12,076 nt of DNA from a virus. This document shows positions 1 to 12,076 of the stretch, in pieces; within the stretch, counting starts at the first letter, position 1; every line of letters starts with the position of its first letter. The stretch lies in the IMG/VR virus record IMGVR_UViG_3300010244_000045, positions 1 through 12,076 of that record, one strand, 5' to 3'. The translations under genes and the position numbers were made by a program. The notes under the pieces are model-generated. The model saw only the letters and a list, made by a program, of their open reading frames with translations. It was not told where the DNA came from and did no database searches.

Positions 1-199
1 GCAGAGCTGTGAATGACCGACCTTCCCTAACACAGATGTCAACACCTGTCAAGAAATAGGGTGAAGATACGAAACCGAGATATATAGAGGTGAGAAGTCA
101 ACAAGTGAGAAGTCAACAAGTGAGAAGAGTGAAATAGAGAGGGTAGACTAGAGAGGGTAGTAGTGGTGGTGTAGCCTGAGTTAACCTAATGAGAGGCTA
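1..199 (+). repeat. Terminal module copy A (199 bp, GCAGAGCTGTGAATGACC...GAGAGGCTA) with 2 iterons
   Basis: The same sequence restarts at 207 after a 7-nt spacer (GGGTAGT). The only difference from copy B is the 15-mer copy number: 274 - 199 = 75 = 5 x 15. Confidence 0.95.
90..127 (+). repeat. 15-bp tandem iteron array GTGAGAAGTCAACAA, 2 full copies plus an 8-nt partial
   Basis: Full copies at 90-104 and 105-119. Partial GTGAGAAG at 120-127. Confidence 0.97.
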
Positions 200-229
200 G
201 GGTAGTGCAGAGCTGTGAATGACCGACCT

Positions 230-258
230 TCCCTAACACAGATGTCAACACCTGTCAA
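230..258 (-). promoter_or_regulatory. Outward-facing promoter-like element in module B (copies also at 24-52 minus, 11819-11847 plus and 12025-12053 plus)
   Basis: Read on the strand pointing to the nearest genome end: TTGACA, a 17-nt spacer ending in TGT, then TAGGGA. The -35 is perfect and a TGn motif is present, but the -10 is weak. A second TTGACA lies 10 nt downstream. Confidence 0.3.
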
Positions 259-295
259 GAAATAGGGTGAAGATACGAAACCGAGATATATAGAG

Positions 296-408
296 GTGAG
301 AAGTCAACAAGTGAGAAGTCAACAAGTGAGAAGTCAACAAGTGAGAAGTCAACAAGTGAGAAGTCAACAAGTGAGAAGTCAACAAGTGAGAAGTCAACAA
401 GTGAGAAG
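296..408 (+). repeat. 15-bp tandem iteron array GTGAGAAGTCAACAA, 7 full copies plus an 8-nt partial
   Basis: Seven perfect head-to-tail copies at 296-400. Partial GTGAGAAG at 401-408. Confidence 0.97.
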
Positions 409-577
409 AGTGAAATAGAGAGGGTAGACTAGAGAGGGTAGTAGTGGTGGTGTAGCCTGAGTTAACCTAATGAGAGGCTATATGTGAAGAGATAAGGGTT
501 AACGAATAGTAACGCCTTAGAATGATATAGAATGGCTTAGACGTTGAATGTGAAGGTCTGAGAGGTGGTATGAAATG

Positions 578-599
578 ATAGGGTTGTAATAGGGTTGTA
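578..599 (+). repeat. 11-bp tandem duplication ATAGGGTTGTA x2 inside the ITR (mirror at 11478-11499)
   Basis: 578-588 is identical to 589-599. Confidence 0.9.
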
Positions 600-680
600 G
601 TCAAGGTCTCTAGGTTCAAGCAAAGAGAGTAAGAAAGAAATAGAGTAAGCTACTAAGAAGTAACCTACTCTAGTTGTTGT

Positions 681-748
681 CTATTCGTTTATGTAAACAC
701 CTTGTCTTAAGAGTGTTTGAATGGTTTCTTGTTCAGTTTCTGAGGCTG
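681..748 (-). pseudogene. Orphan copy of the last 22 codons plus stop of the 722-aa tail gene, carried in the left ITR
   Basis: Exact reverse complement of 11329-11396 (...ASETEQETIQTLLRQGVYINE stop). It has no upstream reading frame, start codon or RBS on the minus strand. Confidence 0.85.
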
Positions 749-751
749 AAC

Positions 752-780
752 TTGTAATTGTATTCTATTTGTGTTAGAAT
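752..780 (+). promoter_or_regulatory. Early promoter P1, immediately inside the left ITR boundary
   Basis: TTGTAA (752-757), a 17-nt spacer with TGt at 772-774, then TAGAAT (775-780). The context ATTTGTGTTAGAAT matches the recurring promoter box. Confidence 0.6.
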
Positions 781-840
781 GATAGTAGGTGTTATAAATT
801 GATTAGGGATTAGTGTACTTTCGTTTCTAATGTCAACAGA

Positions 841-856
841 TATTTGTGTTATATTA
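841..856 (+). promoter_or_regulatory. Early promoter P2 (extended -10 box TATTTGTGTTATATTA)
   Basis: TGt at 847-849 and TATATT at 850-855, about 30 nt upstream of the AAAGGAGG RBS of the first ORF. TGTCAACA at 831-838 overlaps the spacer/-35 region. Confidence 0.55.
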
Positions 857-887
857 AGTATAGAAGGCAATAAAAGGAGGTGAAATT

Positions 888-989
888 ATGTATACAGTAG
901 ATGATTTATTAGAGTTTGTTGAGCATTGCAAACAAGAGGGTATTGAAGTAACTATGATGAACTTTGAAAAGTATAAAGAAGATAAATAG
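888..989 (+). CDS. Small hypothetical protein, 33 aa (MYTVDDLLEFVEHCKQEGIEVTMMNFEKYKEDK), not in the supplied ORF track
   Basis: ATG at 888 preceded by AAAAGGAGGTG (872-882) at ideal spacing. Open to TAG at 987-989. It is the first frame downstream of the early promoters. Confidence 0.5.
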   Translation: MYTVDDLLEFVEHCKQEGIEVTMMNFEKYKEDK

Positions 990-1004
990 AAGGGGGTGTT
1001 AACA

Positions 1005-1268
1005 ATGGCAGAAGTATTAGACAGAAAAGAACAGTCTAAACGTTATGGTGCATTTTGTAAGAACTTTCGTATCGAGTATTTACGAATGGGCTTAGTGGAG
1101 TTCTCAGAACAGACTGATTTGAATTATAAGAGTGTATCGGCTTTTGAGAGTGGTAGGGCTAATAGTTTAGTTTACTTGTACCATTACTACAATATGGCTA
1201 GTGAAAATCAAAAGAAAGTTTTTGCAAATAACATATTTGAAAGAGTAGGAGGTTGTTTTAATGGCTAA
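1005..1268 (+). CDS. XRE-family helix-turn-helix transcriptional regulator (87 aa from ATG 1005)
   Basis: LRMGLVEFSEQTDLNYKSVSAFESGRANS fits the Cro/CI-type HTH pattern. AGGGGG (991-996) lies 8 nt before ATG 1005, so that start is preferred over the track's GTG at 996. Its stop overlaps the next start (ATGGCTAA). Confidence 0.7.
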   Translation: MAEVLDRKEQSKRYGAFCKNFRIEYLRMGLVEFSEQTDLNYKSVSAFESGRANSLVYLYHYYNMASENQKKVFANNIFERVGGCFNG

Positions 1269-1851
1269 ACGAGGAAGAGGTAGACCTTCAGACCCTCCAG
1301 AGATTAGGGCTTTAAAAGAGAAGTATAGAAACGAAATAGCGAAAGCAAATGCAAGGCTACGAAACATCAGAAAAAAAGAGGCAGAGTATTCTCCGGCTTA
1401 TCAGGCTTGGGAAAATAATCTAGGTAGAAACTTTTCAACTGGTGGTCTGAAGAGTGAAAATGAAATTAAAAACGAGATGAGCCGAGTTAGAAAGTTTTTA
1501 AGTAATGAAACAAGCCTCCCAAGTGTAGCTGAAAAGTTTACCGAAAAGCTAGGCGAACGAATAGGCAGGCTAACTCAAGGGTATCGAACAGATGTAGATG
1601 TAGCAGTAGAACCTTTGACTCAGGATCAAATGAAACCTGTATTTGAAGCAGTAGGGAAATACCGACAGGAAAGACAAAAAAGGCGAAACGCTACTGACTT
1701 AACGTCAACAAGAATCTTTCAGGAAGTTCAAGAATTTTCTGAGGGATTAGGAATAGACCTAGCAGAAATGGATTCCGTGGACGTTGAAAGAGCAGTACAA
1801 CAAATGTTTAATATAGAACCCGACGAAGAAATTAATTTCTTTGACTTTTAG
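1261..1851 (+). CDS. Candidate terminal (priming) protein, 196 aa
   Basis: Lies directly upstream of, and translationally coupled into, the protein-primed polymerase module. It has a basic N-terminus (MAKRGRGRP...IAKANARLRNIRKK) and an acidic C-terminus ending in FFDF, loosely resembling phi29 p3 as I remember it. GGAGG lies 8 nt upstream of the ATG. Confidence 0.55.
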   Translation: MAKRGRGRPSDPPEIRALKEKYRNEIAKANARLRNIRKKEAEYSPAYQAWENNLGRNFSTGGLKSENEIKNEMSRVRKFLSNETSLPSVAEKFTEKLGERIGRLTQGYRTDVDVAVEPLTQDQMKPVFEAVGKYRQERQKRRNATDLTSTRIFQEVQEFSEGLGIDLAEMDSVDVERAVQQMFNIEPDEEINFFDF

Positions 1852-1872
1852 TAGGGGGTGAAGAATTGAATA

Positions 1873-3996
1873 ATGAATACTAGATTAGATTTAACAAATA
1901 TAAAAAAGCCCAAAACATACAGCAAGGACAATGTAGACTATCTTAACATCGAATGTGGGTTCGATATCGAAACAAGTTCTACATTAGATGAAAATGGGAA
2001 ACCATTTTCGAACATGTACGCTTGGACTTTTGGAATACAAGATAAAAATCATATAGTTTACGGCAGAACTTGGGAAGAGTTTGAAGCCTTAATGTATGAA
2101 CTGAAAGATTACTTCAATCTTGGGAAGGGTAGAAGATTAATCGTTTATGTTCATAATTTAACCTATGATTTTCAATTTATGAGAAAAAATTTTAAATGGT
2201 CTCGAATTTTTGCTAGAGATGTACGAAAACCAATTATAGCAACTACGGAGTTAGGAATTGAGTTTAAAGATAGCTACTTATTGAGCGGTTACTCATTAAA
2301 TGATGTAGCTGAACGGTTAACAAAACCTGAACACCAGATTAAAAAGTTAAAAGGTGACATGAACCATGATTTAGTTAGACATTATGACACTAAACTAACA
2401 AACAATGAGCTAAAATATATGGAAAATGATGTGCTTATCATTCTCTATTATATTAACGAACAGATAGAGCTTTATGATAATCAAATTACTAAAATACCAT
2501 TAAGCAATACTGGACGAGTAAGACGGTTCATCAAATATAATTGTTATTTTTTCACCCCGAAAGGAACGAAGGACTCTAATGGACAAATAGCAAGGTTTGA
2601 CCAAGATATTCATGGCTTAACGTTGAGTTCAAACGTATATAGATTATCTAAACAAGCCTTTATGGGTGGCTTTACACATGCAAATAGTAAATACGTAAAC
2701 AAAGTTGTTAAAGATGTAGTTAGTTATGATTTATCTAGTTCGTACCCTTCAACGTTACCAACTGAGCTTTTCCCAATGAGTACAGGTGAAAGAATCCACC
2801 CCGAAAACTTGGAAGAACTAAAAGCCCAAAAGAGTAATTATTGTTTATTATTTCAAATACGCTTTAAAAATATCTCGAGGAAATCACATATCCCAGACGA
2901 CTATATAAGTTCTAGCAAGTGCCAGACCCTAGAAGCTCCTATCTTAAGCAACGGACGAGTAAACGGAGCTGATGAGCTAGTAACTACTATTACAGATGTA
3001 GACCTAGACATCATCGAACGTGTTTACACGTGGGATAGTGTAGAAATAGCTGGAGTATATAGGTTTAAAAAAGGCTATATACCAAAACGTATCATTGATT
3101 CTATTATAACACTATTTAGGAACAAAACAAAGCTGAAAGGTATTAAAGATAAGATTTTAGACTACCAACTAAGTAAAGAAATGCTTAATGCAGTATACGG
3201 AATGATGGTAACTGACCCTGTAAAATCTGATATTGTTTATAATAAAAAATTTGACGAGTGGGGAGAGGTAGACCCCGACATGAAGAAAGAACTTAAAGAA
3301 TATAACGAAGAAAAATATAGAACCCTTTTTTATCCTTGGGGTATTTGGGTTACAGCTTACGCTAGGCGTAATTTGTGGTACTTAATCGAGTCACTGGGAC
3401 AAGATTATATTTACTCTGATACCGACTCAGTGAAGTTTAAAAACCATGAAAAACACAAGCATCTGTTTGAACGGTATAATAAAATGGTAGAGAAAAAACT
3501 AGAAGTTAGAGCTGGTAAAAATCACGGGTACACTCTCGAAGACTTCAAGCCTCAGACACCTGAGGGTGAAACGAAAACACTTGGATTTTGGGAGCTTGAC
3601 GGTGAATATTCCAAGTTTAAAACCTTAGGAGCTAAGATGTATCTAGTCGAACACAAAAACAACAAAGAACTTGAAGTAACCGTATCAGGACTAAGCAAGG
3701 AACATGGGAAAAACTACCTTAAAAAGCATTTTGAAAACACTGAAAACATCTTTAATAATTTTACAAATAAACTGACTATATCAGCTGAGGAATCAGGCAA
3801 AAAGTCCGTTTACTACTTGGACAAGTCCCGAAATGCTAAAATAACGGACTACCAAGGACAAACAAGAGCAGTCCACTCACGAACAGGTGTTTATATGGAA
3901 AATGCACACTTTACTTTAGATGAGACTGAACGAGATTTTGACTTAGTAAAAGACCTATTCAACGGCTACATTTACGAAGGTGAAAGTAGAATATAA
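1873..3996 (+). CDS. Protein-primed family-B DNA polymerase, 707 aa
   Basis: Motifs found: Exo I GFDIETSS; Exo II YVHNLTYDFQF; Exo III YMENDVLI; motif A YDLSSSYPS; motif B KEMLNAVYGMM; motif C YSDTDSV; KxY motif LGAKMY. The order and spacing match phi29-type polymerases. Confidence 0.97.
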   Translation: MNTRLDLTNIKKPKTYSKDNVDYLNIECGFDIETSSTLDENGKPFSNMYAWTFGIQDKNHIVYGRTWEEFEALMYELKDYFNLGKGRRLIVYVHNLTYDFQFMRKNFKWSRIFARDVRKPIIATTELGIEFKDSYLLSGYSLNDVAERLTKPEHQIKKLKGDMNHDLVRHYDTKLTNNELKYMENDVLIILYYINEQIELYDNQITKIPLSNTGRVRRFIKYNCYFFTPKGTKDSNGQIARFDQDIHGLTLSSNVYRLSKQAFMGGFTHANSKYVNKVVKDVVSYDLSSSYPSTLPTELFPMSTGERIHPENLEELKAQKSNYCLLFQIRFKNISRKSHIPDDYISSSKCQTLEAPILSNGRVNGADELVTTITDVDLDIIERVYTWDSVEIAGVYRFKKGYIPKRIIDSIITLFRNKTKLKGIKDKILDYQLSKEMLNAVYGMMVTDPVKSDIVYNKKFDEWGEVDPDMKKELKEYNEEKYRTLFYPWGIWVTAYARRNLWYLIESLGQDYIYSDTDSVKFKNHEKHKHLFERYNKMVEKKLEVRAGKNHGYTLEDFKPQTPEGETKTLGFWELDGEYSKFKTLGAKMYLVEHKNNKELEVTVSGLSKEHGKNYLKKHFENTENIFNNFTNKLTISAEESGKKSVYYLDKSRNAKITDYQGQTRAVHSRTGVYMENAHFTLDETERDFDLVKDLFNGYIYEGESRI

Positions 3997-4050
3997 GCTA
4001 GTTAGAATAGAATAATTGCAAGAATTATGATGAAAATAGAACGCCCCTTC

Positions 4051-4066
4051 ATTTATGTTATATTAG
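4051..4066 (+). promoter_or_regulatory. Promoter box upstream of the packaging module (ATTTATGTTATATTAG)
   Basis: TGt at 4056-4058 and TATATT at 4059-4064. The 15-nt context is near-identical to the boxes at 841-856 and 6724-6739. It lies inside the track's N-terminal extension of the ATPase ORF. Confidence 0.5.
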
Positions 4067-4098
4067 AGAGAGAAGGGGCAAAAAGGAGGCTTCACGAG

Positions 4099-5223
4099 TT
4101 GGTAAAAGTTGAACAAGATATACCAAAAAAGAACAAGAAAAATAAATATTACTCCTTAAATTCAATTCTAGGTAAAAACGCCGTCTATAATGTTGTATTT
4201 GGGGAACGGTCAAACGGTAAAACGTACGCCGTGCTTAAATACGCTATTGACCAGTATTTTAATGGCAATGGTGGAGAGTTTGCTATCATAAGACGGTGGC
4301 AAGAAGATATACGAGGGAAACGGGCTAGTGCTATCTTTTCCGCCCTCATTGAAAACAATGAAATTTACGAGCTATCAGGTGGTGAATATGAAGGGGTAAC
4401 CTACTTTAACGGTAGGTTCTTCTTTTGTAACTATGAGGGCAACAAGCCTATTTACAACGAAGGTGATGTATTCGCTTACATATTTTCATTATCTGACCAA
4501 GAACACAATAAGTCTTTTTCATATCCAAAAGTGAAAACGATTTTATTTGATGAGTTTCTAACCAGAGGTATGACGTTAACAGATGAATTTGTACTTTTCA
4601 TGAATACTATTTCAACTATCATCAGACAGCGAACAGATGTAAAAATTTTCATGCTTGGGAATACCGTAAACAAATATTCCCCGTATTTTAAGGAAATGGG
4701 CTTAAAACACGTACCAAAACAGGAACAGGGTACCATAGACGTTTACGATTATGGGGAGAGCAAGCTAAGAGTAGCGGTTGAATATGCTTCTAGTTCAGAA
4801 GCCAAGAAAAAGAATAACTTTTACTTTGCCTTTGATAATCCAAAACTAAGCATGATTACAGACGGAGCTTGGGAGTTAGACATTTACCCTCATTTACCCG
4901 TCAAGTACAAACCCCAAGACATTTTACTTACATATTTTATCAAGTTTGACGGCAACATTTATCAAGCTGAAATCATAGATACAGACGGAGAACCGTTTAC
5001 CTACATACATGACAAGTCAACTCCTATCAAGAACGAGAATGAAGACCTTGTTTTCAGTCTTGAATTTAACCATAAAATGAACTATCAAAGAAGCATATAT
5101 AAACCTGTAAACCAAGTAGGAAAAGCGATACTCTACTTTTTTCAAATGGATAAGATTTTCTATCAAGATAACGAAGTAGGAGACGCTATTAATAACTACC
5201 TGAATATATCAAAACAACTATAA
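4099..5223 (+). CDS. DNA encapsidation (packaging) ATPase, phi29 gp16-like. Proposed TTG start at 4099 (374 aa); the track start at 4027 is the alternative.
   Basis: Walker A region NVVFGERSNGKTYA followed by FAIIRRW, and Walker B KTILFDEF, parallel phi29 gp16 (FVIGARGIGKSYA...FIYVRRY...FDEF). AAAGGAGG (4082-4089) lies 9 nt before an in-frame TTG at 4099. There is no SD before ATG 4027, and a promoter box sits at 4056-4064. Confidence 0.88.
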   Translation: MVKVEQDIPKKNKKNKYYSLNSILGKNAVYNVVFGERSNGKTYAVLKYAIDQYFNGNGGEFAIIRRWQEDIRGKRASAIFSALIENNEIYELSGGEYEGVTYFNGRFFFCNYEGNKPIYNEGDVFAYIFSLSDQEHNKSFSYPKVKTILFDEFLTRGMTLTDEFVLFMNTISTIIRQRTDVKIFMLGNTVNKYSPYFKEMGLKHVPKQEQGTIDVYDYGESKLRVAVEYASSSEAKKKNNFYFAFDNPKLSMITDGAWELDIYPHLPVKYKPQDILLTYFIKFDGNIYQAEIIDTDGEPFTYIHDKSTPIKNENEDLVFSLEFNHKMNYQRSIYKPVNQVGKAILYFFQMDKIFYQDNEVGDAINNYLNISKQL

Positions 5224-5236
5224 AGGAGCTGAACAA

Positions 5237-6706
5237 ATGGCTTATAATGAAAAATTCGATTGGGGTATTTATAACGGAATCGGAATTACATATGACTATA
5301 AAGATAAGTCCTTAAACGTACGTAGACAAATTCACTATATGCTGAACAGAAGTTTACTGATGTTTAAATATCACGGGTTACCTGATTCCCTCCCTGCTAA
5401 AGAATTAGAACGACTATTACAAACGAATGGATACGCTGGGGTTACTGAGGTAGAAGGTGACTTATACGCCTTTTACGGTGGGTTAGGAGGTGAACCGAAC
5501 GTTTACGGAAAACCTACTACAATGACCATAGCCAACCCTGCTTTAAACTACAATGAAATGCTAGAAATTGGAGAAGAGGTTGTTTTAGCTAAGAATGACG
5601 ATTTAATGATGGGCTTAGTTCCTATTTACTCAAAATATTCAACGCTTATGAATGAAAATGAGATAACTATGATTCTCAGCCTCATTAATAAACGAGCTAA
5701 CAACATGATTAGTGTTACAGATGATAACACAGCAGAATCAGCTAGGCAGTACCTGAAGAACCTTGAAGCTGGAGACTTAGGCTACATATTCGAGAACAAA
5801 CTCTTTGATTCCCTGAAAACCAATCCGACTGGAGAAGGTTCAGGAACCAATTTAAACGAGTTAGTAGAGTTTGAACAGTACGTTAAAGCTAGTATGTATA
5901 ACGAGATAGGCTTAAATGCTAACTTCAACATGAAGCGTGAACGCCTTGTTTCAGACGAATTAGAAGCCAACTCAGAAACCTTGTACCCTCTAGTAGATAA
6001 TATGCTAGACAATAGACGTCAAGCCGTAGAACAGATTAATGAAATGTTTGGTACAGAGATTCAAGTAGAATTTAACTCAAGCTGGGATATGAGACTAGGA
6101 CAAGAAGAATATACAGAAGCTTCAGACGAGACCCGAGAAGAAGAGTTAAACCCTGAAACTGATTTAGGGTTAGAAGATATAACATCAGAAGAAAATGAAA
6201 GTCCTCAAGGTGAAGACGTAGAAAATGACTTAAACCTTAATGATGAAGGAATAACTGAAGATACTGAAGCATTGGAGTATTTACACACCTTAGAGCCTGA
6301 AGAATCTGAAGAGGACACTGAGACGGAATCAGAGGACGAACAAGAGGTTACTGACACTGAAAACGATGAAGAGACTGCTTATCCCTCAGAAGACAGTACA
6401 GAGCCTTTAAATGAGTCTGATGAAGACGTTGAAGAACCGACTGAAGAACCTCAAGGAGAGAATACAAATATTGATATAGATATCAACGTAGACTCTCAAT
6501 CAGAAGCCACAGAAGAGCCTGAGAATGATTTAGAAGAAGAGAATGAAGAAACACCTGAAGAGGATACAGAAGAGCTCACAGAGTATTCTGAGGACGATTC
6601 AGAGGAAGAGGTTAACGTAGAGGTCAACGTAAACACTGAAGAGAATACTGAAGAACCTGAAGAGGAAGACGAGGACGAAGAGGGAGACGAACAACTTTCA
6701 GACTAA
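5237..6706 (+). CDS. Portal/connector protein (phi29 gp10-like, aa 1-288) fused to a 201-aa polyacidic C-terminal tail
   Basis: Several blocks are co-linear with phi29 gp10 as I remember it: LLMFKYHGLPDSLP, NVYGKPT...ANP, NENEITMILSLINKRANNMISV, MYNEIGLNANFNMKRERLVSDE and RRQAVEQINEMFGTEIQVEF. AAGGAG RBS at 5222-5228. Confidence 0.9.
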   Translation: MAYNEKFDWGIYNGIGITYDYKDKSLNVRRQIHYMLNRSLLMFKYHGLPDSLPAKELERLLQTNGYAGVTEVEGDLYAFYGGLGGEPNVYGKPTTMTIANPALNYNEMLEIGEEVVLAKNDDLMMGLVPIYSKYSTLMNENEITMILSLINKRANNMISVTDDNTAESARQYLKNLEAGDLGYIFENKLFDSLKTNPTGEGSGTNLNELVEFEQYVKASMYNEIGLNANFNMKRERLVSDELEANSETLYPLVDNMLDNRRQAVEQINEMFGTEIQVEFNSSWDMRLGQEEYTEASDETREEELNPETDLGLEDITSEENESPQGEDVENDLNLNDEGITEDTEALEYLHTLEPEESEEDTETESEDEQEVTDTENDEETAYPSEDSTEPLNESDEDVEEPTEEPQGENTNIDIDINVDSQSEATEEPENDLEEENEETPEEDTEELTEYSEDDSEEEVNVEVNVNTEENTEEPEEEDEDEEGDEQLSD

Positions 6707-6723
6707 AAATGAAAGCACTTCCA

Positions 6724-6739
6724 ATTTGTGTTATATTAG
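6724..6739 (+). promoter_or_regulatory. Promoter box upstream of the head module (ATTTGTGTTATATTAG)
   Basis: TGt at 6729-6731 and TATATT at 6732-6737. The flanks match the 4051-4066 box, including the downstream AGAGAGAG. Confidence 0.5.
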
Positions 6740-6759
6740 AGAGAGGAGGGTAAAGAAGA

Positions 6760-7374
6760 ATGCACGTACATAATTTATATAAAGATGGAAAAGGCATTTT
6801 TCATTACATAGACCAACTAGAAGAACTACCCTTCAGGGAAATGTTAGATACAGAAACCGTAGACCTGCTTTTTATCAGCCTTCACGGTTCGAGAGAAGTA
6901 TCAACAACCGTCCGAAATATAGTAGGTGATGAAGAAGTAACAGAGGATAATTTAAAGGCAGTAGCTAGTATGCTTCACGGACTTTATTTTAAAAAGTGGG
7001 TGAACTTATACAACATTTACGCCCGAGAGTTAGAACTTGAGACTTATAACCTAACAACCACTGAAACCATTGATGATGACGGGAAAACAAGTTCAGATAC
7101 CAATGACTCAACAACAACAACCAGACAAACAGGCGTAGCTGGTTATAATAGTGAAGATTTTGCTAATGATGAAGAAGAATCACTAAAAGATGAGGCAACA
7201 GGTGAACGAACAGGAACAAGTCAAAATGAACGAACCAGAGAAACACAGGTTAAAGGTAATACTGATAACCTAATAGATGATAGAAATAAAGCAATAAATG
7301 CACTTAAATATAACCTACTTCAAGATACAATCTTTAAAGATGTGAATCAGTTTGTAGGTACACTAATTTATTAA
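6760..7374 (+). CDS. Virion-module protein of unknown role, 204 aa (candidate scaffolding protein or lower-collar/adaptor)
   Basis: AGGAGGG RBS, and a position between the portal and capsid genes. The termini look helical and the centre is rich in T/S/D/E. I recognised no diagnostic motif. Confidence 0.6.
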   Translation: MHVHNLYKDGKGIFHYIDQLEELPFREMLDTETVDLLFISLHGSREVSTTVRNIVGDEEVTEDNLKAVASMLHGLYFKKWVNLYNIYARELELETYNLTTTETIDDDGKTSSDTNDSTTTTRQTGVAGYNSEDFANDEEESLKDEATGERTGTSQNERTRETQVKGNTDNLIDDRNKAINALKYNLLQDTIFKDVNQFVGTLIY

Positions 7375-7388
7375 AGGAGAATGAATCA

Positions 7389-8552
7389 ATGAGAGTTGAA
7401 CAAATACATGAAATTATGAACCAATCGACATCAGAAGTATTAGGTAGAGAAGGTATTGTAAAAGAAGACCTTTCTAATATCGTAGACGTGGGTAACGAGA
7501 TTATTGGTTCAGATAATATTGATAACTATGTTAAAAAGCTAGTCAACCATATTGGAAAAGTGGTTTTTGATAACCGAACATATTCAGGAAACGTTCCAAG
7601 CGTATTAATGGATAGCTGGGAATTTGGATCAATCCTAGAGAAAATCAGCGCAGATATTCCACAAGCTGAAGAAAACGAAAGCTGGAATTTAAACGATGGT
7701 GAAGTATACGGACAAGATACTTTCTACCAACCTAAAGTAAACGCTAAATTCTTCAACTCTAAAGTAACTTTTGAAGTACCAATTTCATTTACTGAGCTTC
7801 AGGTTAAAGAATCGTTCTCTAACGCTGAACAGCTAAACGGTTTCTTATCTATGATTTTCAACGCAGTAGAGAAATCTCTAACTATCAAAACTGATAACTT
7901 AGTTATGAAAATGTTGAATAACATGACAGCTGAAACCCTAACAGATGACTTAGTAGACGGAGAAGGTACTTTACAGTTGAGCCAATCAGGAACAAAGGCT
8001 ATTAACTTGTTGAGTCTATACAATGAGCAAGCTGAAGGAACAGTTACGAAAGATGTTGCACACCGTAACCCTGATTTTATCCGTTTTGCTTCATACGTGA
8101 TTAACCTTTATAAAGACCGTATGACTAAGATTAGTACGTTGTTTAACGTTGGTAAGAAAGAACGCTTCACACCTGAACAAGATATTAACGTAGTTCTTCT
8201 TTCAGACTTTGCAAGCGCTTCAACAGCCTTCTTACAGTCTGATACTTACAATAGTGAGTTAGTAGCGTTACCGAACTATGAAACAGTGCCTTACTGGCAA
8301 GGTTCAGGGGAAACGTATGACTTTACAGAGGTTTCTAAAATCTCAGTCAAAACATCAAACGGTGACCATGTAACCACTGATGGAATTTTAGGAGTTATGT
8401 TTGATAAACAAGCCGTAGGTGTAGCTAACTTAGATAGACGAGTTACTTCCCACTACAATGCTAAGGCTGAGTTCTACAACAACTTCTACAAAGCAGACGC
8501 AGGTTATTTCAACGACTTAAACGAAAACTTCATTGTTTTCTTTGCTGCTTAA
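7389..8552 (+). CDS. Major capsid protein, 387 aa
   Basis: Its size, its position after the portal/scaffold-like genes, its AAGGAG RBS and the strong terminator downstream all fit. Blocks such as KKLVNHIGKVVF and GVMFDKQAVGVANL resemble phi29 gp8 (LVDRIGLVV, LVDKDWFMVYDNL). Confidence 0.78.
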   Translation: MRVEQIHEIMNQSTSEVLGREGIVKEDLSNIVDVGNEIIGSDNIDNYVKKLVNHIGKVVFDNRTYSGNVPSVLMDSWEFGSILEKISADIPQAEENESWNLNDGEVYGQDTFYQPKVNAKFFNSKVTFEVPISFTELQVKESFSNAEQLNGFLSMIFNAVEKSLTIKTDNLVMKMLNNMTAETLTDDLVDGEGTLQLSQSGTKAINLLSLYNEQAEGTVTKDVAHRNPDFIRFASYVINLYKDRMTKISTLFNVGKKERFTPEQDINVVLLSDFASASTAFLQSDTYNSELVALPNYETVPYWQGSGETYDFTEVSKISVKTSNGDHVTTDGILGVMFDKQAVGVANLDRRVTSHYNAKAEFYNNFYKADAGYFNDLNENFIVFFAA

Positions 8553-8589: not shown

Positions 8590-8770
8590 TTCTGATACTG
8601 AGGGATAAGGGTAGGTATCAACATTTAGTCAAAGTTACTCGTGCCGACATTCAAAAGTAACTTGTCCTTTTACATATCTATGTAAAAACAGATTCATAGA
8701 ATGGCTTAAAATGTCATTCTAAACTCACTAAGAGGGTAGGGGTAGGAGGTTACCCTTACCTTCTTTTTTT
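8590..8770 (+). ncRNA. Structured non-coding region (4 hairpins plus a terminator hairpin); candidate packaging RNA or structured 3' UTR
   Basis: Stems: 8593-8598/8615-8620; 8632-8639/8656-8663; 8668-8675/8680-8687; 8697-8705/8713-8721; 8731-8744/8751-8764. The region has no ORF or RBS. Confidence 0.3.
8731..8770 (+). terminator. Rho-independent terminator after the capsid gene
   Basis: AGAGGGTAGGGGTA (8731-8744) pairs with TACCCTTACCTTCT (8751-8764), including two G-U pairs, around the loop GGAGGT. A T-run follows to 8770. Confidence 0.8.
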
Positions 8771-9227: not shown

Positions 9228-11396
9228 ATGGCAAATTTATCTGAACTAAATCCTTTTCCAGAAAGAGACCCTTACGCAACCTCATTCCCTGTAAACAAAG
9301 TGTCTTCGCCAGCCATTGAAATTAGAAGCTCTACAAACGACGCAGGGCGAACTACATTAGACGATTCGGTTACGATTTGGGTAAGTGATAGGTTAAAAGA
9401 TATTGATAACGTTACAATATACATGTTCAAGGCGGGTACAAGTGGTGGCTTTTTCTCACAACCTAGCGAAAGTATATTTCCCGACAATGGTATACCTTCA
9501 GAACAGTATAAGGGTGCAAAGTACTTCAGATTTAGAATAGGCGATTACTTCACTGAAGACGATATTCTAGAAGAATTGAGGGTAAGGGTAGACGTTGTCC
9601 CTCAAGGGCAGGCAAAAACGGGAATACCTATAGAATTTAATCTTGATGATGAGCTTACAACCTCGAATAATCATTGGGAATACGTAGAACTTGATACGCC
9701 TATAACAATCAAAGCTGAATCAGACCAGGCTATTAATGCAATGAGAATCACGCGTGCTACAGGAATACATTCAAGTTGGCAGGATAACATTGCTGACACT
9801 GATTATTTTGATGTTAAAATACCAGACGAAAGTGTTCATAATCAGACTGAATTTACTTTTACTATAGGAGACTATAGAGCTAGTTTTGGTAGAGATTTAT
9901 GGTTCACAATAAACGCTACAAGCGTACCTGCTGAAGAAATACCACTCATCGAAGCAACTTACAGTGAATCATTGGTTAACTTAACTAGCGATAAGCTAGA
10001 TGATATGGTTATTGAAGGGCAAGACAACCTTGTAACATTTAGCTCTACTGATGACCATCATTATATAAGTTCACTAGAGATTGATTTAGAATATACAAAC
10101 ATGGAAGTAAACACTGTTGAGGTAACACTAAGTGAACGTCAAAAACATATAACTGTAGACCTGAGCAGATACCTTGAAGATGATTTACTTGGTATTCACA
10201 TGAAGGGTAGAGCTGATAAACTTAGAACATGGCTTACATACACAACTGAAGAAGAAGCAGAGGACAACCCAAGTTTCACTGCTACGGTAATCAATGCAAC
10301 AGTACAAAATCAGTCTGATATGATTAATGATGATGATATAATCGTGATTACAGGTAACTCAGGTAGAGTCTTTAATGACCCTATTACATTACGAATAGAT
10401 TACCCTGATGAGCTTATCAGAGGGGGGACAACAGCCCCCACACATGAAACATTCACAGCGTACCCTGATGACCCCGAAACAGCAGGTTATTTCAGTGAAG
10501 ACAAGGGAACTGTACGTATACCTGTTGCTGACTTTTGGAAGGAAGAGTACTACGAATTCCCACCTGGGAGGGTAACAATCACACAAGCTGTAGCGTCCCA
10601 AAAGAAGCTTACCGACGGTTTTGTAACCAACTATGCTAACATATTCAAAATGAGTAGAGAGAGCTTAGACGAGTTCACAGAAGCCTTGTACAGCTTTGAT
10701 TCGAATAGCTACCTAGATAGCGTTTATAATCGGGTACATTCAATCTACAGCATGCCTTTCAAGCTACCTGATGAGATGATTTCAGAGGAGCCTAAAGACA
10801 TTATTACATATAATTCAGGTGGTACTAATGTTGAGAGTCCTGAAGCTCGTTACATACTTGATAATAAGTACATTGTCCCTTTAGGCACGATTAGCGTAGA
10901 GGGCGAGTATGGTAACGTATATGACTTTAAAGACACTCAGGCATACGTACACGCACCTTATGTAGAGCAACCTATACTAGTAGACCCTAGTTACGTAATC
11001 AATGAGCAAGTCACTCTAAACGTCGCAATAGACCTTTATAACGGTAATGCTACACTGAACATACATTCGAGCAAGATACAAGGAGAGCTAGTGCAAAGGA
11101 ACAACATTCCTATTAAGCACGATATACCAATGGTAAGCAACTCTTACAACGTGATTGAGGGCGTAGTTGGTGGCTTTGTATACAACCAAGTAACCACACC
11201 TTTCATTGAGATTGTCCGTAATATACCTTATGAATCAGGTTCTATGTTCGGTAAAGAATCTAATGACTACTCACAACTCAAACACTTCACAGGCTATATT
11301 GAAGTGATGACAAGTCACGTCAACTCAACAGCCTCAGAAACTGAACAAGAAACCATTCAAACACTCTTAAGACAAGGTGTTTACATAAACGAATAG
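9228..11396 (+). CDS. Tail knob/receptor-binding protein, 722 aa: four tandem beta-rich modules plus a gp9-like C-terminal region
   Basis: The C-terminus FTGYIEVMTSHVNSTASETEQETIQTLLRQGVYI resembles the gp9 C-terminus [34 protein letters not shown]. GGAGG lies 10 nt upstream. It is the largest late ORF, and its last 68 nt lie in the ITR. Confidence 0.72.
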   Translation: MANLSELNPFPERDPYATSFPVNKVSSPAIEIRSSTNDAGRTTLDDSVTIWVSDRLKDIDNVTIYMFKAGTSGGFFSQPSESIFPDNGIPSEQYKGAKYFRFRIGDYFTEDDILEELRVRVDVVPQGQAKTGIPIEFNLDDELTTSNNHWEYVELDTPITIKAESDQAINAMRITRATGIHSSWQDNIADTDYFDVKIPDESVHNQTEFTFTIGDYRASFGRDLWFTINATSVPAEEIPLIEATYSESLVNLTSDKLDDMVIEGQDNLVTFSSTDDHHYISSLEIDLEYTNMEVNTVEVTLSERQKHITVDLSRYLEDDLLGIHMKGRADKLRTWLTYTTEEEAEDNPSFTATVINATVQNQSDMINDDDIIVITGNSGRVFNDPITLRIDYPDELIRGGTTAPTHETFTAYPDDPETAGYFSEDKGTVRIPVADFWKEEYYEFPPGRVTITQAVASQKKLTDGFVTNYANIFKMSRESLDEFTEALYSFDSNSYLDSVYNRVHSIYSMPFKLPDEMISEEPKDIITYNSGGTNVESPEARYILDNKYIVPLGTISVEGEYGNVYDFKDTQAYVHAPYVEQPILVDPSYVINEQVTLNVAIDLYNGNATLNIHSSKIQGELVQRNNIPIKHDIPMVSNSYNVIEGVVGGFVYNQVTTPFIEIVRNIPYESGSMFGKESNDYSQLKHFTGYIEVMTSHVNSTASETEQETIQTLLRQGVYINE

Positions 11397-11404
11397 ACAA
11401 CAAC

Positions 11405-11446
11405 TAGAGTAGGTTACTTCTTAGTAGCTTACTCTATTTCTTTCTT
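11405..11446 (+). terminator. Terminator-like hairpin after the last gene, encoded within the right ITR
   Basis: TAGAGTAGGTTAC/GTAGCTTACTCTA forms an imperfect 13-position stem with 2 mismatches and a 6-nt loop, followed by TTTCTTTCTT. The mirror copy is at 641-672. Confidence 0.55.
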
Positions 11447-11596
11447 ACTCTCTTTGCTTGAACCTAGAGACCTTGACTACAACCCTATTACAACCCTATC
11501 ATTTCATACCACCTCTCAGACCTTCACATTCAACGTCTAAGCCATTCTATATCATTCTAAGGCGTTACTATTCGTTAACCCTTATCTCTTCACATA

Positions 11597-11870
11597 TAGC
11601 CTCTCATTAGGTTAACTCAGGCTACACCACCACTACTACCCTCTCTAGTCTACCCTCTCTATTTCACTCTTCTCACTTGTTGACTTCTCACTTGTTGACT
11701 TCTCACTTGTTGACTTCTCACTTGTTGACTTCTCACTTGTTGACTTCTCACTTGTTGACTTCTCACTTGTTGACTTCTCACCTCTATATATCTCGGTTTC
11801 GTATCTTCACCCTATTTCTTGACAGGTGTTGACATCTGTGTTAGGGAAGGTCGGTCATTCACAGCTCTGC
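11597..11870 (-). repeat. Terminal module copy B, right arm (mirror of 207-480)
   Basis: Reverse complement of 207-480, ending in ...CACAGCTCTGC at 11870. Confidence 0.95.
11669..11781 (-). repeat. Mirror of the 7-copy iteron array (TTGTTGACTTCTCAC on the + strand)
   Basis: CTTCTCAC at 11669-11676, followed by seven TTGTTGACTTCTCAC units to 11781. Confidence 0.97.
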
Positions 11871-11877
11871 ACTACCC

Positions 11878-12076
11878 TAGCCTCTCATTAGGTTAACTCA
11901 GGCTACACCACCACTACTACCCTCTCTAGTCTACCCTCTCTATTTCACTCTTCTCACTTGTTGACTTCTCACTTGTTGACTTCTCACCTCTATATATCTC
12001 GGTTTCGTATCTTCACCCTATTTCTTGACAGGTGTTGACATCTGTGTTAGGGAAGGTCGGTCATTCACAGCTCTGC
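11878..12076 (-). repeat. Terminal module copy A, right arm (mirror of 1-199)
   Basis: Reverse complement of 1-199. Confidence 0.95.
11950..11987 (-). repeat. Mirror of the 2-copy iteron array
   Basis: Reverse complement of 90-127. Confidence 0.97.

What the first reader, a model, noticed from the sequence alone, without database searches (positions are those of the whole stretch)
6101..6703. Portal protein carries a 201-residue polyacidic, lysine-free C-terminal tail
After the gp10-like core ends (...QVEFNSSWDMRLG), the same ORF continues for 201 residues. By hand count about 95 of them are Asp or Glu, with one Arg, one His and no Lys. The rest is mostly T/S/N/P, with short motifs such as NIDIDINVD and EVNVEVNVN. 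In phi29-type portals the C-terminus faces the capsid interior. A dodecamer would therefore place roughly a thousand negative charges inside a head that packages only 12 kb. Possible roles are a built-in scaffold or head-size determinant, a DNA-mimic or volume filler that tunes packaging density, or an ejected anti-defence DNA mimic. None of these can be decided from the sequence.
Basis: partly seen in the sequence, partly recalled or inferred. Interest (0 to 1): 0.7.

Follow-up and report, generated by a model that had tools for sequence, protein, structure and literature searches.

The report
Polyacidic disordered tail on phage portal
The portal protein of this 12-kb phi29-like phage really does carry a 201-residue, almost purely negative, unstructured C-terminal tail; this tail is an extreme case of a trait shared by a whole clade of the smallest tailed phages, and its function is still unknown.

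Summary
ORF 5237-6706 encodes a 489-aa phi29-type connector. Residues 289-489 (nt 6101-6703) hold 70 Glu, 25 Asp, 1 Arg, 1 His and no Lys. Two other metagenome assemblies keep the same frame without indels, so a sequencing frameshift is very unlikely.

The tail is not a one-off. All 120 closest homologues carry tails of 82-201 aa. Of 150 representatives clustered at 50% identity, 130 carry tails of at least 30 aa (range 3-333), and all 130 are net negative. Cultured relatives (Salmonella phage astrithr, Acinetobacter phage Phanie) have them too. In relatives the tails are often Thr/Glu repeats that grow and shrink.

Homology to phi29 gp10 puts the tail root at the wide end of the portal, inside the head.

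The 12 tails give about -1130 charges, which is only 4.7% of the DNA charge and about 300 bp of volume. Tail length does not track genome length. A role as a global filler or pressure tuner is therefore weak.

Best guess (about 0.35): a portal-tethered polyanionic brush that stands in for a scaffold or inner core. I rate it a new variant of a known kind, of moderate interest.

The parts
5223..5228 (+). Shine-Dalgarno AAGGAG of the portal gene, 8 nt before the ATG at 5237
   Evidence: read directly from the sequence
5237..6706 (+). portal (upper collar connector) gene, 489 codons plus a TAA stop
   Evidence: ORF list; Pfam PF05352, 60.6 bits; PHROG 2038; phi29 and GA1 connectors in the PDB, E 3e-14 to 4e-10
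5237..6100 (+). conserved connector core, aa 1-288; the last invariant residues among close homologues are Q289 and E291
   Evidence: alignment A1; 5240 homologues
6101..6703 (+). polyacidic, lysine-free, predicted-disordered C-terminal tail, aa 289-489 (E70, D25, R1, H1, K0; net charge per residue -0.47)
   Evidence: AF2 gives no secondary structure for 281-489; not alignable to homologues
6470..6490 (+). first alternating hydrophobic/polar strand motif, IDIDINV (aa 412-418)
6611..6631 (+). second alternating strand motif, VNVEVNV (aa 459-465), 24 residues from the C-terminus and followed by NTEEN; this is the window's copy of a recurrent sub-terminal module; it overlaps a 12-nt tandem duplication at 6607-6631
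6704..6706 (+). TAA stop codon of the portal gene
6724..6763 (+). 40-nt promoter/RBS-like element just after the portal stop (extended -10 TGTTATATT plus GGAGG); two further copies at 842-881 and 4051-4090; it marks the start of the next unit (orf204 and MCP)
   Evidence: repeat family D9; promoter-like hit at 6709-6737; sequence reading
6760..7374 (+). 204-aa ORF; likely lower collar (phi29 gp11-like topology), not a scaffold
   Evidence: AF2 model shows N-terminal helices, a long beta-hairpin and a C-terminal helix, matching the gp11 description in PMC6542822; it lies in the same position as the ~190-aa ORF in relatives; no sequence or Foldseek hit
7389..8552 (+). phi29-type major capsid protein, the possible partner of the tail; no N-terminal delta-type scaffold domain
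   Evidence: Pfam PF25622, 181 bits, covering aa 12-385
4027..5223 (+). gp16-type packaging ATPase directly upstream of the portal gene
   Evidence: Pfam PF05894
1..748 (.). left inverted terminal repeat (the right copy is 11329-12076); it shows the window is a complete linear protein-primed genome with only about 10 genes

Best explanation
WHAT IT IS (confidence about 0.9). The tail is a translated, intrinsically disordered, polyanionic C-terminal extension of a phi29-type portal. It is the long extreme of a trait shared by the astrithr-like clade of 10.5-13 kb protein-primed podophages. It evolves by in-frame gain and loss of short acidic coding units. Selection acts on its bulk character (negative charge, few basic residues, low hydrophobicity) rather than on its sequence. 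Twelve copies are rooted on the wide, inward-facing end of the portal. They form a brush of about 2400 residues, 276 kDa and about -1130 charges around the inner mouth of the DNA channel.

HOW IT MOST LIKELY WORKS (confidence about 0.35; inferred, not shown). It is a built-in substitute for the separately encoded scaffold or inner-core proteins of larger phi29-like phages.
- In the empty prohead, the brush spreads from the portal. Its random-coil reach is about 11 nm and its contour length about 72 nm.
- It fills the space over the portal. Through short sticky elements it contacts the inner face of the neighbouring capsid proteins. In this phage those elements are the alternating strands IDIDINV and VNVEVNV. 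In most close relatives the equivalent is a terminal amphipathic helix.
- The shell therefore nucleates on, and incorporates, exactly one portal.
- When DNA is pumped in, like-charge repulsion strips the tails off the wall. The tails collapse into a DNA-excluding plug on the portal axis and stay there as a fused 'inner core'.

SHOWN: ORF continuity, composition, family-wide distribution, absence of any recognisable scaffold gene, motif recurrence, and the position of the tail root by homology.
INFERRED: that the tail is retained in virions, that it contacts the capsid protein, and that DNA evicts it.
For: - One ORF of exact composition. The frame is kept in three assemblies, and the only changes are E->D, Y->D and one synonymous change.
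- The tail lies deep in the disordered region of the charge-hydropathy plot: mean hydropathy 0.303 against a boundary of 0.581. AF2 gives no secondary structure for 281-489.
- Distribution: tails of 82-201 aa in all 120 closest homologues. In 130 of 150 representatives at 50% identity the tail is >=30 aa, up to 333 aa with 144 acidic residues. All 130 are net negative, with a median of -0.33 per residue. Astrithr (151 aa) and Phanie (86 aa) have tails too.
- Every astrithr-organised genome in IMG/VR with an intact portal ORF keeps a tail of >=45 aa. Many are TE/TD repeats that differ by whole units between near-identical lineages, 54-102 aa.
- Position: the alignment with phi29 gp10 ends at residue 283 of 309. 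phi29 has only a 26-aa tail. The phi29 wide end lies inside the head and the gp10 residues compared reach 284 (PMC6542822).
- Gene inventory: about 10 genes, none scaffold-like. orf204 has lower-collar topology. The review of phi29-like phages lists no p7 homologue for this group (PMC11476376).
- In phi29, a temperature-sensitive mutation in the scaffolding protein gives isometric T=3 shells that lack the connector (PMC11476376). In phi29, then, proper scaffolding goes together with connector incorporation.
- Motif: the [VIL]x[VIL]x[VIL]x[VIL] strand occurs in 15 of 130 representative tails against 3.3 expected. The extended form occurs in 10 against 0.34 expected. It ends 20-30 aa from the C-terminus in 9 of 16 cases against 1.5 expected (P = 3e-5). 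The carriers fall in at least 12 separate core clusters.
- 103 of the 120 closest homologues instead end in a conserved amphipathic motif.
- Precedents: P68 has 72 inner-core subunits on the inner face of its portal, with arms that reach capsid hexamers (PMC6795507). In Pa193 an acidic scaffold turn binds basic capsid residues (PMC11456595).
Against: - No direct evidence shows that the tail is present in virions or touches the capsid protein.
- The sticky element is not universal. Most TE-repeat tails have no hydrophobic tip, and a general test for hydrophobic clustering was not significant (7 of 92 at p<0.05 against 4.6 expected).
- Some relatives have tails of only 3-30 aa, with no scaffold candidate identified. 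A long tail is therefore not essential to this portal fold.
- Twelve tethered chains are far fewer than the 150-180 scaffold copies in phi29.
- The capsid protein is itself acidic (net -23), so any contact must be local.
- The motifs in the window overlap micro-duplications and could partly be slippage products.
- The AF2 model was poor throughout (mean pLDDT 37), so its 'coil' call for the tail is weak evidence.
Confidence: 0.4

Rival explanations
1. DNA-management brush only. The tails have no assembly role. As a polyanionic cushion on the portal crown they keep packaged DNA off the channel mouth, define a DNA-free axis for spooling, and so ease packaging and complete ejection. This would be a disordered functional analogue of the P22 portal barrel or the T7 and P68 inner cores.
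For: - The tail root sits at the inner channel mouth.
- Every tail >=30 aa is net negative and basic residues are depleted (the window has 0 Lys). That is what a DNA-repelling element would need.
- Bulk composition is conserved while sequence and length are not.
- Portal C-terminal structures projecting into the head are known. P22 has a 15-nm barrel (PMC4992974 abstract). P68 has inner-core proteins on the portal.
Against: - The global effect is small: 4.7% of DNA charge, about 310 bp of volume, and 0.1-0.5 atm Donnan pressure in an empty head.
- Genome length does not compensate for tail length.
- This reading does not explain the conserved sub-terminal strand or the terminal helix modules.
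- Relatives with 3-30 aa tails manage without a long tail.
Confidence: 0.22
2. Tolerated low-complexity passenger. The C-terminus points into free space, so slippage-prone GA-rich coding repeats expand and contract almost neutrally. Only purifying selection against basic or hydrophobic residues shapes the composition, because such residues would stick to DNA or aggregate. The tail has no positive function.
For: - Length varies enormously (3-333 aa) and jumps by repeat units between near-identical lineages.
- The tail is not alignable.
- Many tails are pure TE/TD repeats.
- Other portals tolerate C-terminal passengers. T4 portal-GFP fusions still package DNA (PMC3941703). Pa193 portal has 237 C-terminal residues without density.
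- Genome size in the clade varies by about 2.5 kb, so 0.6 kb is affordable.
Against: - A tail of >=45 aa is kept in every astrithr-organised genome sampled that has an intact portal ORF, and one of >=82 aa in all 120 closest homologues. These genomes have only ~10 tightly packed genes.
- In GA-rich sequence any frameshift hits a stop at once, yet truncated tails are not seen.
- Conserved tip modules exist.
- Substitutions between strains keep or add acidity.
Confidence: 0.2
3. Terminal-protein or DNA-end catcher. The acidic tails bind the strongly basic N-terminal part of the genome-linked terminal protein (orf196 begins MAKRGRGRP...RNIRKK) as the first DNA end emerges from the channel. This helps initiation and parks that end at the portal so that ejection can finish.
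For: - The virion proteins are all acidic. The only strongly basic segment among the ORFs >=85 aa read here is the N-terminus of the putative terminal protein.
- In P68, one DNA end makes a unique contact with one portal subunit.
- The phi29 tail-tube lumen is electrostatically complementary to the terminal protein.
Against: - The identity of orf196 as the terminal protein rests on position only; it has no family hit.
- Two terminal proteins would not need 12 x 201 residues.
- There is no comparative test.
Confidence: 0.08
4. Pre-assembly role in the cytoplasm. The tail acts as a solubility or anti-aggregation 'entropic bristle' that controls portal ring formation. Alternatively it is a DNA mimic (Ocr/ArdA-like) that titrates host DNA-binding defence proteins, possibly after cleavage or ejection.
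For: The polyacidic, DNA-like charge density. Acidic tails are common solubilisers (general knowledge).
Against: - It is a late structural gene fused to a ring protein that stays in the capsid.
- There is no fixed charge pattern or fold, unlike Ocr and ArdA.
- No protease gene is present.
- The tails are not conserved in sequence.
- A PADLOC or anti-defence comparison was not run.
Confidence: 0.06
5. Artefact. A sequencing or assembly frameshift joins a portal of about 290 aa to a non-coding or separately translated acidic frame.
For: None found. The only ground is general caution about low-complexity sequence.
Against: - Three assemblies from different samples agree with no indel.
- Hundreds of homologues from independent sources carry in-frame acidic tails.
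- There is no ATG (Met codon) inside the tail.
Confidence: 0.01

Closest known systems
Bacillus phage phi29 gp10 connector (PDB 1FOU, 1H5W, 6QZ9; Pfam PF05352)
   Same: Homologous core (E 3e-14, aa 31-282 against 27-283). The C-terminus lies at the wide end inside the head. The last ~25 residues fall outside the residue ranges compared in the cryo-EM study (up to 284), and the extreme C-terminus is mildly acidic: [26 protein letters not shown].
   Different: phi29 has 26 residues beyond the core with 6 D/E and 3 R. The window has 201 with 95 D/E and 1 R. phi29 also encodes a separate scaffold (gp7) and has a 19-kb genome.
Portals of Astrithrvirus-like mini-podophages (Salmonella phages astrithr, assan and Astrid; Acinetobacter phage Phanie; Pectobacterium phage DU_PP_III)
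   Same: Same genome plan: putative terminal protein, PolB, ATPase, portal, ~190-aa collar, MCP and a split knob, in a 10.5-13 kb linear genome with ITRs. Portal cores are 44-50% identical. They also carry long acidic/polar C-terminal tails, 151 aa in astrithr and 86 aa in Phanie.
   Different: Their tails are less acidic (26-33% D+E against 47%). They contain Lys, Gln and Gly and end in a conserved helix-like module (…DPESSDADKQAARELL…). The window's tail is lysine-free, longer, and has the strand motif instead. Those hosts are Gram-negative. The window's closest clade includes a contig labelled Staphylococcus xylosus.
C-terminal barrel of P22/Sf6-type portals
   Same: A portal C-terminal extension that projects about 15 nm from the crown into the capsid interior along the portal axis (PMC4992974 abstract).
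   Different: The barrel is a 12-helix alpha-helical structure. The window's tail has no predicted helix, is rich in Pro, Thr and Asn, carries -0.47 charge per residue, and is unrelated in sequence.
Long unresolved C-terminal region of the Pseudomonas phage Pa193 portal
   Same: Residues 529-765 (237 aa) of that portal give no cryo-EM density (PMC11456595). Long, flexible portal C-termini inside heads therefore exist elsewhere.
   Different: It is an unrelated myophage portal. Its composition was not examined here, and that paper proposes no function.
Inner core protein gp22 and inner capsid protein gp21 of Staphylococcus phage P68
   Same: These are internal proteins of a phi29-like phage that cover the inward face of the portal. 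They are mostly disordered (only residues 91-114 of 147 are seen), and some reach and remodel neighbouring capsid hexamers. gp21 sits in the scaffold gene position.
   Different: They are separately encoded and present in 72 copies. gp22 is ejected with the DNA and has predicted pore-lining helices. The window's tail is covalently fused (12 copies) and polyacidic.
phi29 scaffolding protein gp7
   Same: Has a disordered tail and lies inside the prohead. A temperature-sensitive mutation in it gives isometric shells without a connector. That it is acidic is from my own knowledge, not checked here.
   Different: It is a free 98-aa helix-loop-helix dimer in about 150-180 copies. It shows no detectable similarity to the tail: no Pfam or PHROG hit lies in aa 297-489.
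DNA-mimic anti-restriction proteins (T7 Ocr, ArdA)
   Same: A high density of carboxylates.
   Different: Those are folded, early-expressed, free proteins with a fixed phosphate-like charge pattern (my own knowledge, not tested here). This is a disordered segment of a late structural protein.

Membership tests
phi29-type connector / upper collar portal (Pfam PF05352, PHROG 2038) | Profile match above the curated threshold over the connector domain | tested here: met
   PF05352 scores 60.6 bits against a cut-off of 25.6, aa 31-280. PHROG 2038 gives E 3.6e-39, aa 27-296.
phi29-type connector / upper collar portal (Pfam PF05352, PHROG 2038) | Sequence homology to structurally solved connectors | tested here: met
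   phi29 1H5W/1FOU at E 3e-14 to 6e-14; GA1-type 7PV4/7PV2 at E 4e-13 to 4e-10.
phi29-type connector / upper collar portal (Pfam PF05352, PHROG 2038) | Genomic company: gp16-type ATPase, protein-primed family-B polymerase, phi29-type MCP, linear genome with ITRs | tested here: met
   PF05894, PF03175 and PF25622; 748-nt perfect ITRs.
phi29-type connector / upper collar portal (Pfam PF05352, PHROG 2038) | Dodecameric ring with a central channel and the C-terminus inside the head | not testable with these tools
   Inferred from homology only. The monomer AF2 model was of low confidence (mean pLDDT 37).
Astrithrvirus-like mini-podophages (genus Astrithrvirus and unclassified relatives) | Linear genome of 10.5-13 kb with the shared gene order | tested here: met
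   Window gene order against NC_048862 and OX458330; 12076 bp.
Astrithrvirus-like mini-podophages (genus Astrithrvirus and unclassified relatives) | Nucleotide or protein similarity at genus level to Astrithrvirus astrithr | tested here: not met
   No megablast hit to any deposited phage. The portal core is only 45-50% identical. It is a related clade, not a member of the genus.
Astrithrvirus-like mini-podophages (genus Astrithrvirus and unclassified relatives) | Acidic C-terminal portal extension (a feature proposed here) | tested here: met
P22-type portal barrel | Alpha-helical, coiled-coil-forming C-terminal domain | tested here: not met
   AF2 gives no helix in 281-489. The tail has 10 Pro, 21 Thr, 16 Asn and a net charge of -0.47 per residue.
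Phage scaffolding proteins (phi29 gp7 / P22 gp8 type) | Helix-loop-helix coat-binding domain, or sequence similarity to a known scaffold family | tested here: not met
   No Pfam or PHROG family hits the tail and no helices are predicted.
Phage scaffolding proteins (phi29 gp7 / P22 gp8 type) | Binds the inner surface of the capsid protein and is required for correct prohead assembly | not testable with these tools
   Needs pull-downs, co-expression or cryo-EM.
Inner core / ejection proteins (P68 gp22, T7 gp14-16) | Separately encoded, stacked on the portal crown, ejected with the DNA | tested here: not met
   The tail is fused to the portal ORF. Only the location is analogous.
DNA-mimic anti-defence proteins (Ocr, ArdA) | Independent folded protein with a fixed DNA-like charge array, expressed early | tested here: inconclusive
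   It is not an independent gene and no fold is predicted. The timing of expression and any inhibition of defence systems were not tested, and the padloc library was not searched.

The most novel reading that the evidence does not exclude
In the smallest tailed phages the portal carries its own scaffold. A polyanionic disordered leash with a short docking strand or helix recruits capsid protein to the portal. This guarantees one portal per shell without any scaffold gene. Incoming DNA then evicts the leash electrostatically, and it stays as a fused inner core. This would be a third solution to capsid scaffolding, alongside free scaffold proteins and the MCP-fused delta domain of HK97.
Probability: 0.25. 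Interest if true: 0.75.

Novelty: new variant of a known kind. Interest (0 to 1): 0.5.

Why it matters
These 10.5-13 kb protein-primed podophages are the smallest known tailed viruses (PMC11476376). With about 10 genes and no recognisable scaffold, how they build a portal-containing HK97-fold shell is an open question.

A clade-wide polyanionic tail fused to the portal is an obvious candidate for the missing function. It places about 1100 fixed negative charges in the same compartment as the DNA. It is directly testable in culturable members: astrithr on Salmonella, and Phanie on Acinetobacter with its helper phage.

Whatever the answer, it bears on three things:
- the minimal requirements for tailed-phage assembly;
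- how charged disordered regions behave inside DNA-filled capsids;
- the engineering of phi29-type connectors, whose C-termini are used as fusion points.

There is also a practical point. With one Arg and no Lys, the tail is almost invisible to standard tryptic proteomics, so it may have been missed in virion mass-spectrometry data.

Tried and rejected
1. Megablast of the whole window against 50,697 phage records gave no match. Relatives were reached only at the protein level.
2. AF2 of the full portal with a 25-sequence alignment gave a poor model (mean pLDDT 37). Low pLDDT in the tail is therefore not independent evidence of disorder. I rely on composition and charge-hydropathy instead.
3. 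I tried to identify orf204 by Foldseek against the PDB, by a PDB profile search and by PHROGs at E<=1. Nothing was found. Only the fold topology and gene position suggest a lower collar.
4. I tested whether short-tail relatives encode the missing function as a separate gene. Most do carry an extra ~100-aa ORF just upstream of the MCP gene. However, that ORF is beta-rich (GGYKLIDFK...). It also occurs in long-tail members of that clade (L015, L057). It therefore tracks phylogeny, not tail length. I rejected it as evidence.
5. The volume/charge-filler idea predicts a negative relation between genome length and tail length. I found none (rho 0.02-0.11, n=26), and the physical estimates are small.
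6. A general 'hydrophobic island near the tip' test across tails was not significant. Only the specific alternating-strand motif and the clade-specific terminal helix are supported.
7. TRF shows that the window's tail is not a clean tandem array; it has only two short 9-12-nt duplications. This contrasts with the TE-repeat tails of relatives.
8. Rfam found no pRNA or other RNA family.
9. The genome-contig scan returned only gut MAG contigs plus one short isolate-assembly fragment (Herbiconiux daphne, 711 nt), with no host information for this phage.
10. The key experimental paper on Phanie (Pourcel et al. 2024, J Virol) is not held. I could not check whether its virion proteomics or EM address the tail. 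Full-text searches found no description of acidic portal tails in this group.
Full report
**1. The window**

The 12,076-bp window is a complete-looking linear genome.
- It has perfect 748-nt inverted terminal repeats.
- All substantial ORFs are on the + strand.
- In order they are: a 90-aa ORF; a 196-aa ORF with a very basic N-terminus (positionally the terminal protein); a protein-primed family-B DNA polymerase (PF03175); a gp16-type packaging ATPase (PF05894); the portal (PF05352); a 204-aa ORF; a phi29-type major capsid protein (PF25622); a 143-aa ORF; and a 722-aa ORF.
- No deposited phage matches at the nucleotide level.
- At the protein level, the closest annotated relatives of the portal core are the 11-12 kb Astrithrvirus-like phages. 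These are Salmonella phages astrithr, assan and Astrid, Acinetobacter phage Phanie, Pectobacterium phage DU_PP_III and others, at 44-50% identity.
- Closer, un-named relatives (66-71% identical) sit on metagenomic contigs of 10.6-12 kb. One carries a Staphylococcus xylosus label.

**2.

The portal ORF (5237-6706) has a good ribosome-binding site and encodes 489 aa. The part after ...SSWDMRLG is 201 aa (nt 6101-6703). It contains 70 Glu, 25 Asp, one Arg, one His and no Lys.

Against the composition of the phage's other proteins this is far outside chance. P is about 5e-27 for the acidity and 8e-7 for the lack of Lys. No other 201-aa stretch exceeds 42 acidic residues.

Both alternative + frames are closed by many stops. 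Two JGI contigs from other samples carry the same phage at 99.6-99.9% identity. They have no indel in the tail, and their three substitutions are E->D, Y->D and one synonymous change.

**3. The tail is not alignable but is a family trait**

In an alignment of 25 close homologues, conservation is high up to SSWDxRxNQGE and then disappears. The last invariant residues are Q289 and E291.
- All 120 best homologues have tails of 82-201 aa (median 89, 38% D+E). The window type is the longest of these.
- An exhaustive HMMER search of 1.84 billion representatives found 2376 relatives.
- Among the best 150 (one per 50%-identity cluster), tails range from 3 to 333 aa with a median of 81.
- Of those, 130 are >=30 aa and 10 are >=200 aa.
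- All 130 tails >=30 aa are net negative. The medians are -0.33 charge per residue, 39% D+E and 6% K+R.
- The window lies at about the 95th percentile for length. Six representatives carry even more acidic residues, up to 144.
- The deposited phages astrithr (425-aa portal) and Phanie (361 aa) also have acidic/polar tails. phi29 itself has only 26 residues beyond the aligned core.

**4. How the tails evolve**

I fetched 80 IMG/VR loci and looked at the tails.
- Many are nearly pure repeats such as (TE)n, (ETE)n or TDGNDTETEETEETKE.
- Otherwise near-identical lineages differ by whole repeat units, 54-102 aa.
- The window's tail is a degenerate version with only two short tandem duplications left.
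- Every genome with the astrithr-type organisation and an intact portal ORF keeps at least 45 residues.
- Shorter tails (20-47 aa) belong mostly to a sister group with a different gene order and genomes of 12.4-16 kb.

So length is free to drift, but presence and acidity are maintained.

**5. Physical character and location**

The tail lies deep in the 'natively unfolded' region of the charge-hydropathy plot. Its mean hydropathy is 0.303 against a boundary of 0.581, and its net charge per residue is -0.47. AF2 predicts no secondary structure for 281-489, but the whole model was of low confidence.

Query residue 282 aligns with residue 283 of phi29 gp10. In phi29 cryo-EM structures the gp10 residue ranges compared stop at 284. 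The wide end rests on the inner capsid surface, with DNA rings wrapped on top of it (PMC6542822). The tail therefore almost certainly starts at the inner mouth of the channel.

Twelve tails amount to 2412 residues, 276 kDa and a net charge of about -1130. A random-coil estimate gives about 11 nm end-to-end and 72 nm contour per chain.

**6.

The tails equal 4.7% of the genome's phosphate charge and about 310 bp of DNA volume. Alone in an empty head they would exert only 0.1-0.5 atm of Donnan pressure (my estimate, assuming inner radii of 16-20 nm).

In 26 contigs with ITRs of at least 100 nt, genome length (10.7-13.2 kb) shows no relation to tail length or acidic count. Spearman rho is 0.02 to 0.21 and not significant. 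This role is weak.

**7.

The segment is fused to a late structural ring protein. It has no fixed charge pattern, and the genome encodes no protease. I consider this role unlikely, although it is not excluded.

**8.

Several facts are compatible with this idea.
- The genome has about 10 genes and none looks like a scaffold.
- The MCP profile match covers the whole protein, with no delta-type domain.
- orf204 has the three-part topology described for the phi29 lower collar gp11: N-terminal helices, a long beta-hairpin and a C-terminal helix. Foldseek and profile searches, however, found nothing.
- The recent review of phi29-like phages lists polymerase, terminal protein, SSB, MCP, both collars and a split knob for this group, but no p7 scaffold (PMC11476376).
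- The same review notes that a temperature-sensitive phi29 scaffolding-protein mutant makes isometric T=3 shells that lack the connector.

For an isometric mini-phage, the indispensable job of a scaffold may therefore be portal incorporation. A portal-tethered element could do that job.

**9. A new observation: the sub-terminal strand motif**

Two such heptads in one tail are unexpected from its composition (0.03 expected, p = 0.003).

The same motif appears in other tails as VEVNVEV, VNIEVNIEV, VNIDVEINV, VDIDITIDI, VTVEVNVEVSV and similar strings.
- It recurs in 15 of 130 representative tails, against 3.3 expected from shuffles (maximum 9).
- With the following N-[ST]-[DE] it occurs in 10, against 0.34 expected.
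- It ends 20-30 residues from the C-terminus in 9 of 16 cases, against 1.5 expected (P = 3e-5).
- The carriers are scattered over at least 12 core clusters and are no more related to one another than average.

Two other clades have different tip modules.
- In the window's closest clade, 103 of 120 portals end with a conserved amphipathic motif, [DE][FL][EQ]xI[IV][DE]x[FL]xxL, 2-9 residues from the end. The 17 without it, including the window type, have the longest tails.
- The astrithr clade has another conserved terminal module...DPESSxEDKQAARELL....

Many tails are therefore 'an acidic leash plus a short sticky tip', which suggests a docking partner. This is not universal, however. TE-repeat tails have no such tip, and a general hydrophobic-cluster test was not significant.

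**10. Interpretation**

I am confident (about 0.9) about what the feature is. It is a real, translated, disordered polyanionic extension on the inward face of the portal, and it is lineage-wide and compositionally selected.

For mechanism I commit, at about 0.35, to a portal-tethered scaffold/inner-core surrogate. The brush occupies the prohead lumen over the portal. It contacts neighbouring capsid proteins through its short motifs, so that the shell nucleates on the portal. Incoming DNA then drives it off the wall, and it remains as a DNA-excluding axial plug.

There are precedents for the individual pieces:
- P68's 72 portal-bound inner-core subunits, with arms reaching capsid hexamers (PMC6795507);
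- acidic scaffold turns binding basic capsid residues in Pa193, and 237 unresolved C-terminal residues in that phage's portal (PMC11456595);
- the P22 portal barrel;
- tolerance of the T4 portal for C-terminal GFP (PMC3941703).

The main rivals are:
- a purely DNA-managing brush (0.22);
- a tolerated low-complexity passenger shaped only by negative selection against basic residues (0.20);
- a catcher for the basic terminal protein (0.08);
- cytoplasmic or anti-defence roles (0.06);
- an artefact (0.01).

**11. Novelty and score**

The sequences of related tails are already in public records, and portal C-terminal extensions and inner cores are known concepts. I found no description of this polyacidic portal tail, or of its motifs, in the searchable literature. 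The key Phanie paper could not be read.

I rate it a new variant of a known kind, with interest 0.5. Against that, the clade-wide conservation, the missing scaffold and the recurrent motif make it a concrete, testable lead on how the smallest tailed phages assemble.

Noticed in passing
window 1-748 and 11329-12076: The perfect 748-nt inverted terminal repeats are unusually long for a 12-kb genome. Each contains two blocks of 15-nt tandem repeats (GAGAAGTCAACAAGT; 62-142 and 268-423) and an internal 127-nt direct duplication. The right ITR overlaps the last 68 nt of orf722 (11329-11396).
   Followed up: partly
window 842-881, 4051-4090, 6724-6763: A 40-nt element (ATTTGTGTTATATTA...AGGAGG: an extended -10 plus an RBS) occurs three times, each just before a start codon. 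The starts are ATG 889 (a 33-aa ORF), an in-frame TTG at 4099 inside the listed ATPase ORF, and ATG 6760 (orf204). This suggests three transcription units and that the ATPase may really start at 4099.
   Followed up: partly
L003 (JGI 3300009048, 27.5-kb contig) 1-5439 and 16412-21470: The same phage (window 676-11647, 99.9% identical) is flanked on one side by bacterial-type genes (GntR, RpiR, GH4 glycosidase, PTS EIICB, NanE) and on the other by two large ORFs with no Pfam hit. The junctions lie inside the ITRs. It could be a chimeric assembly or a real association; this was not resolved, and it might hint at the host.
   Followed up: no
window, whole: No endolysin, holin or phi29-type pRNA is recognisable. 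Pfam and PHROGs found nothing for orf90, orf196, orf143, orf204 or orf722, and Rfam gave no hit at E<=1. Cultured relatives encode an endolysin after the knob gene; here the 748-nt ITR follows directly.
   Followed up: partly
L017 1885-2193, L019 2180-2482, L020 1948-2244, L073 2245-2556, L015 3980-4264, L057 3533-3829: A sister group of mini-podophages has the portal gene near the left end of the fetched contigs. It carries a conserved, beta-rich ~100-aa ORF (MxxGGYKLIDFK...) immediately upstream of the MCP gene. The window's group lacks this ORF. Its function is unknown; it may be a decoration or minor capsid protein.
   Followed up: partly
L036, L054, L055, L024, L025-L076 portal 3' ends: The portal tails of relatives are near-perfect Thr/Glu/Asp micro-repeats (for example TETDTETEKETD..., ETEETEETEE...). 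They vary by whole repeat units between almost identical genomes, so this is a hypervariable in-frame coding repeat.
   Followed up: yes
window 8730-8765 and 11405-11436: Strong intrinsic-terminator-like hairpins follow the MCP gene (16-bp stem plus a T-run, ahead of the orf143 start at 8790) and orf722. The second lies inside the ITR, so it is mirrored at 641-672 on the minus strand.
   Followed up: no
PMC11476376 section 2.6 (literature): The relative Phanie is reported to be a satellite whose virions become infectious only after binding the contractile tail of a helper myophage. Whether the window's phage has a similar lifestyle is unknown. It has the same split tail-knob gene layout (orf143 plus orf722).
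   Followed up: no
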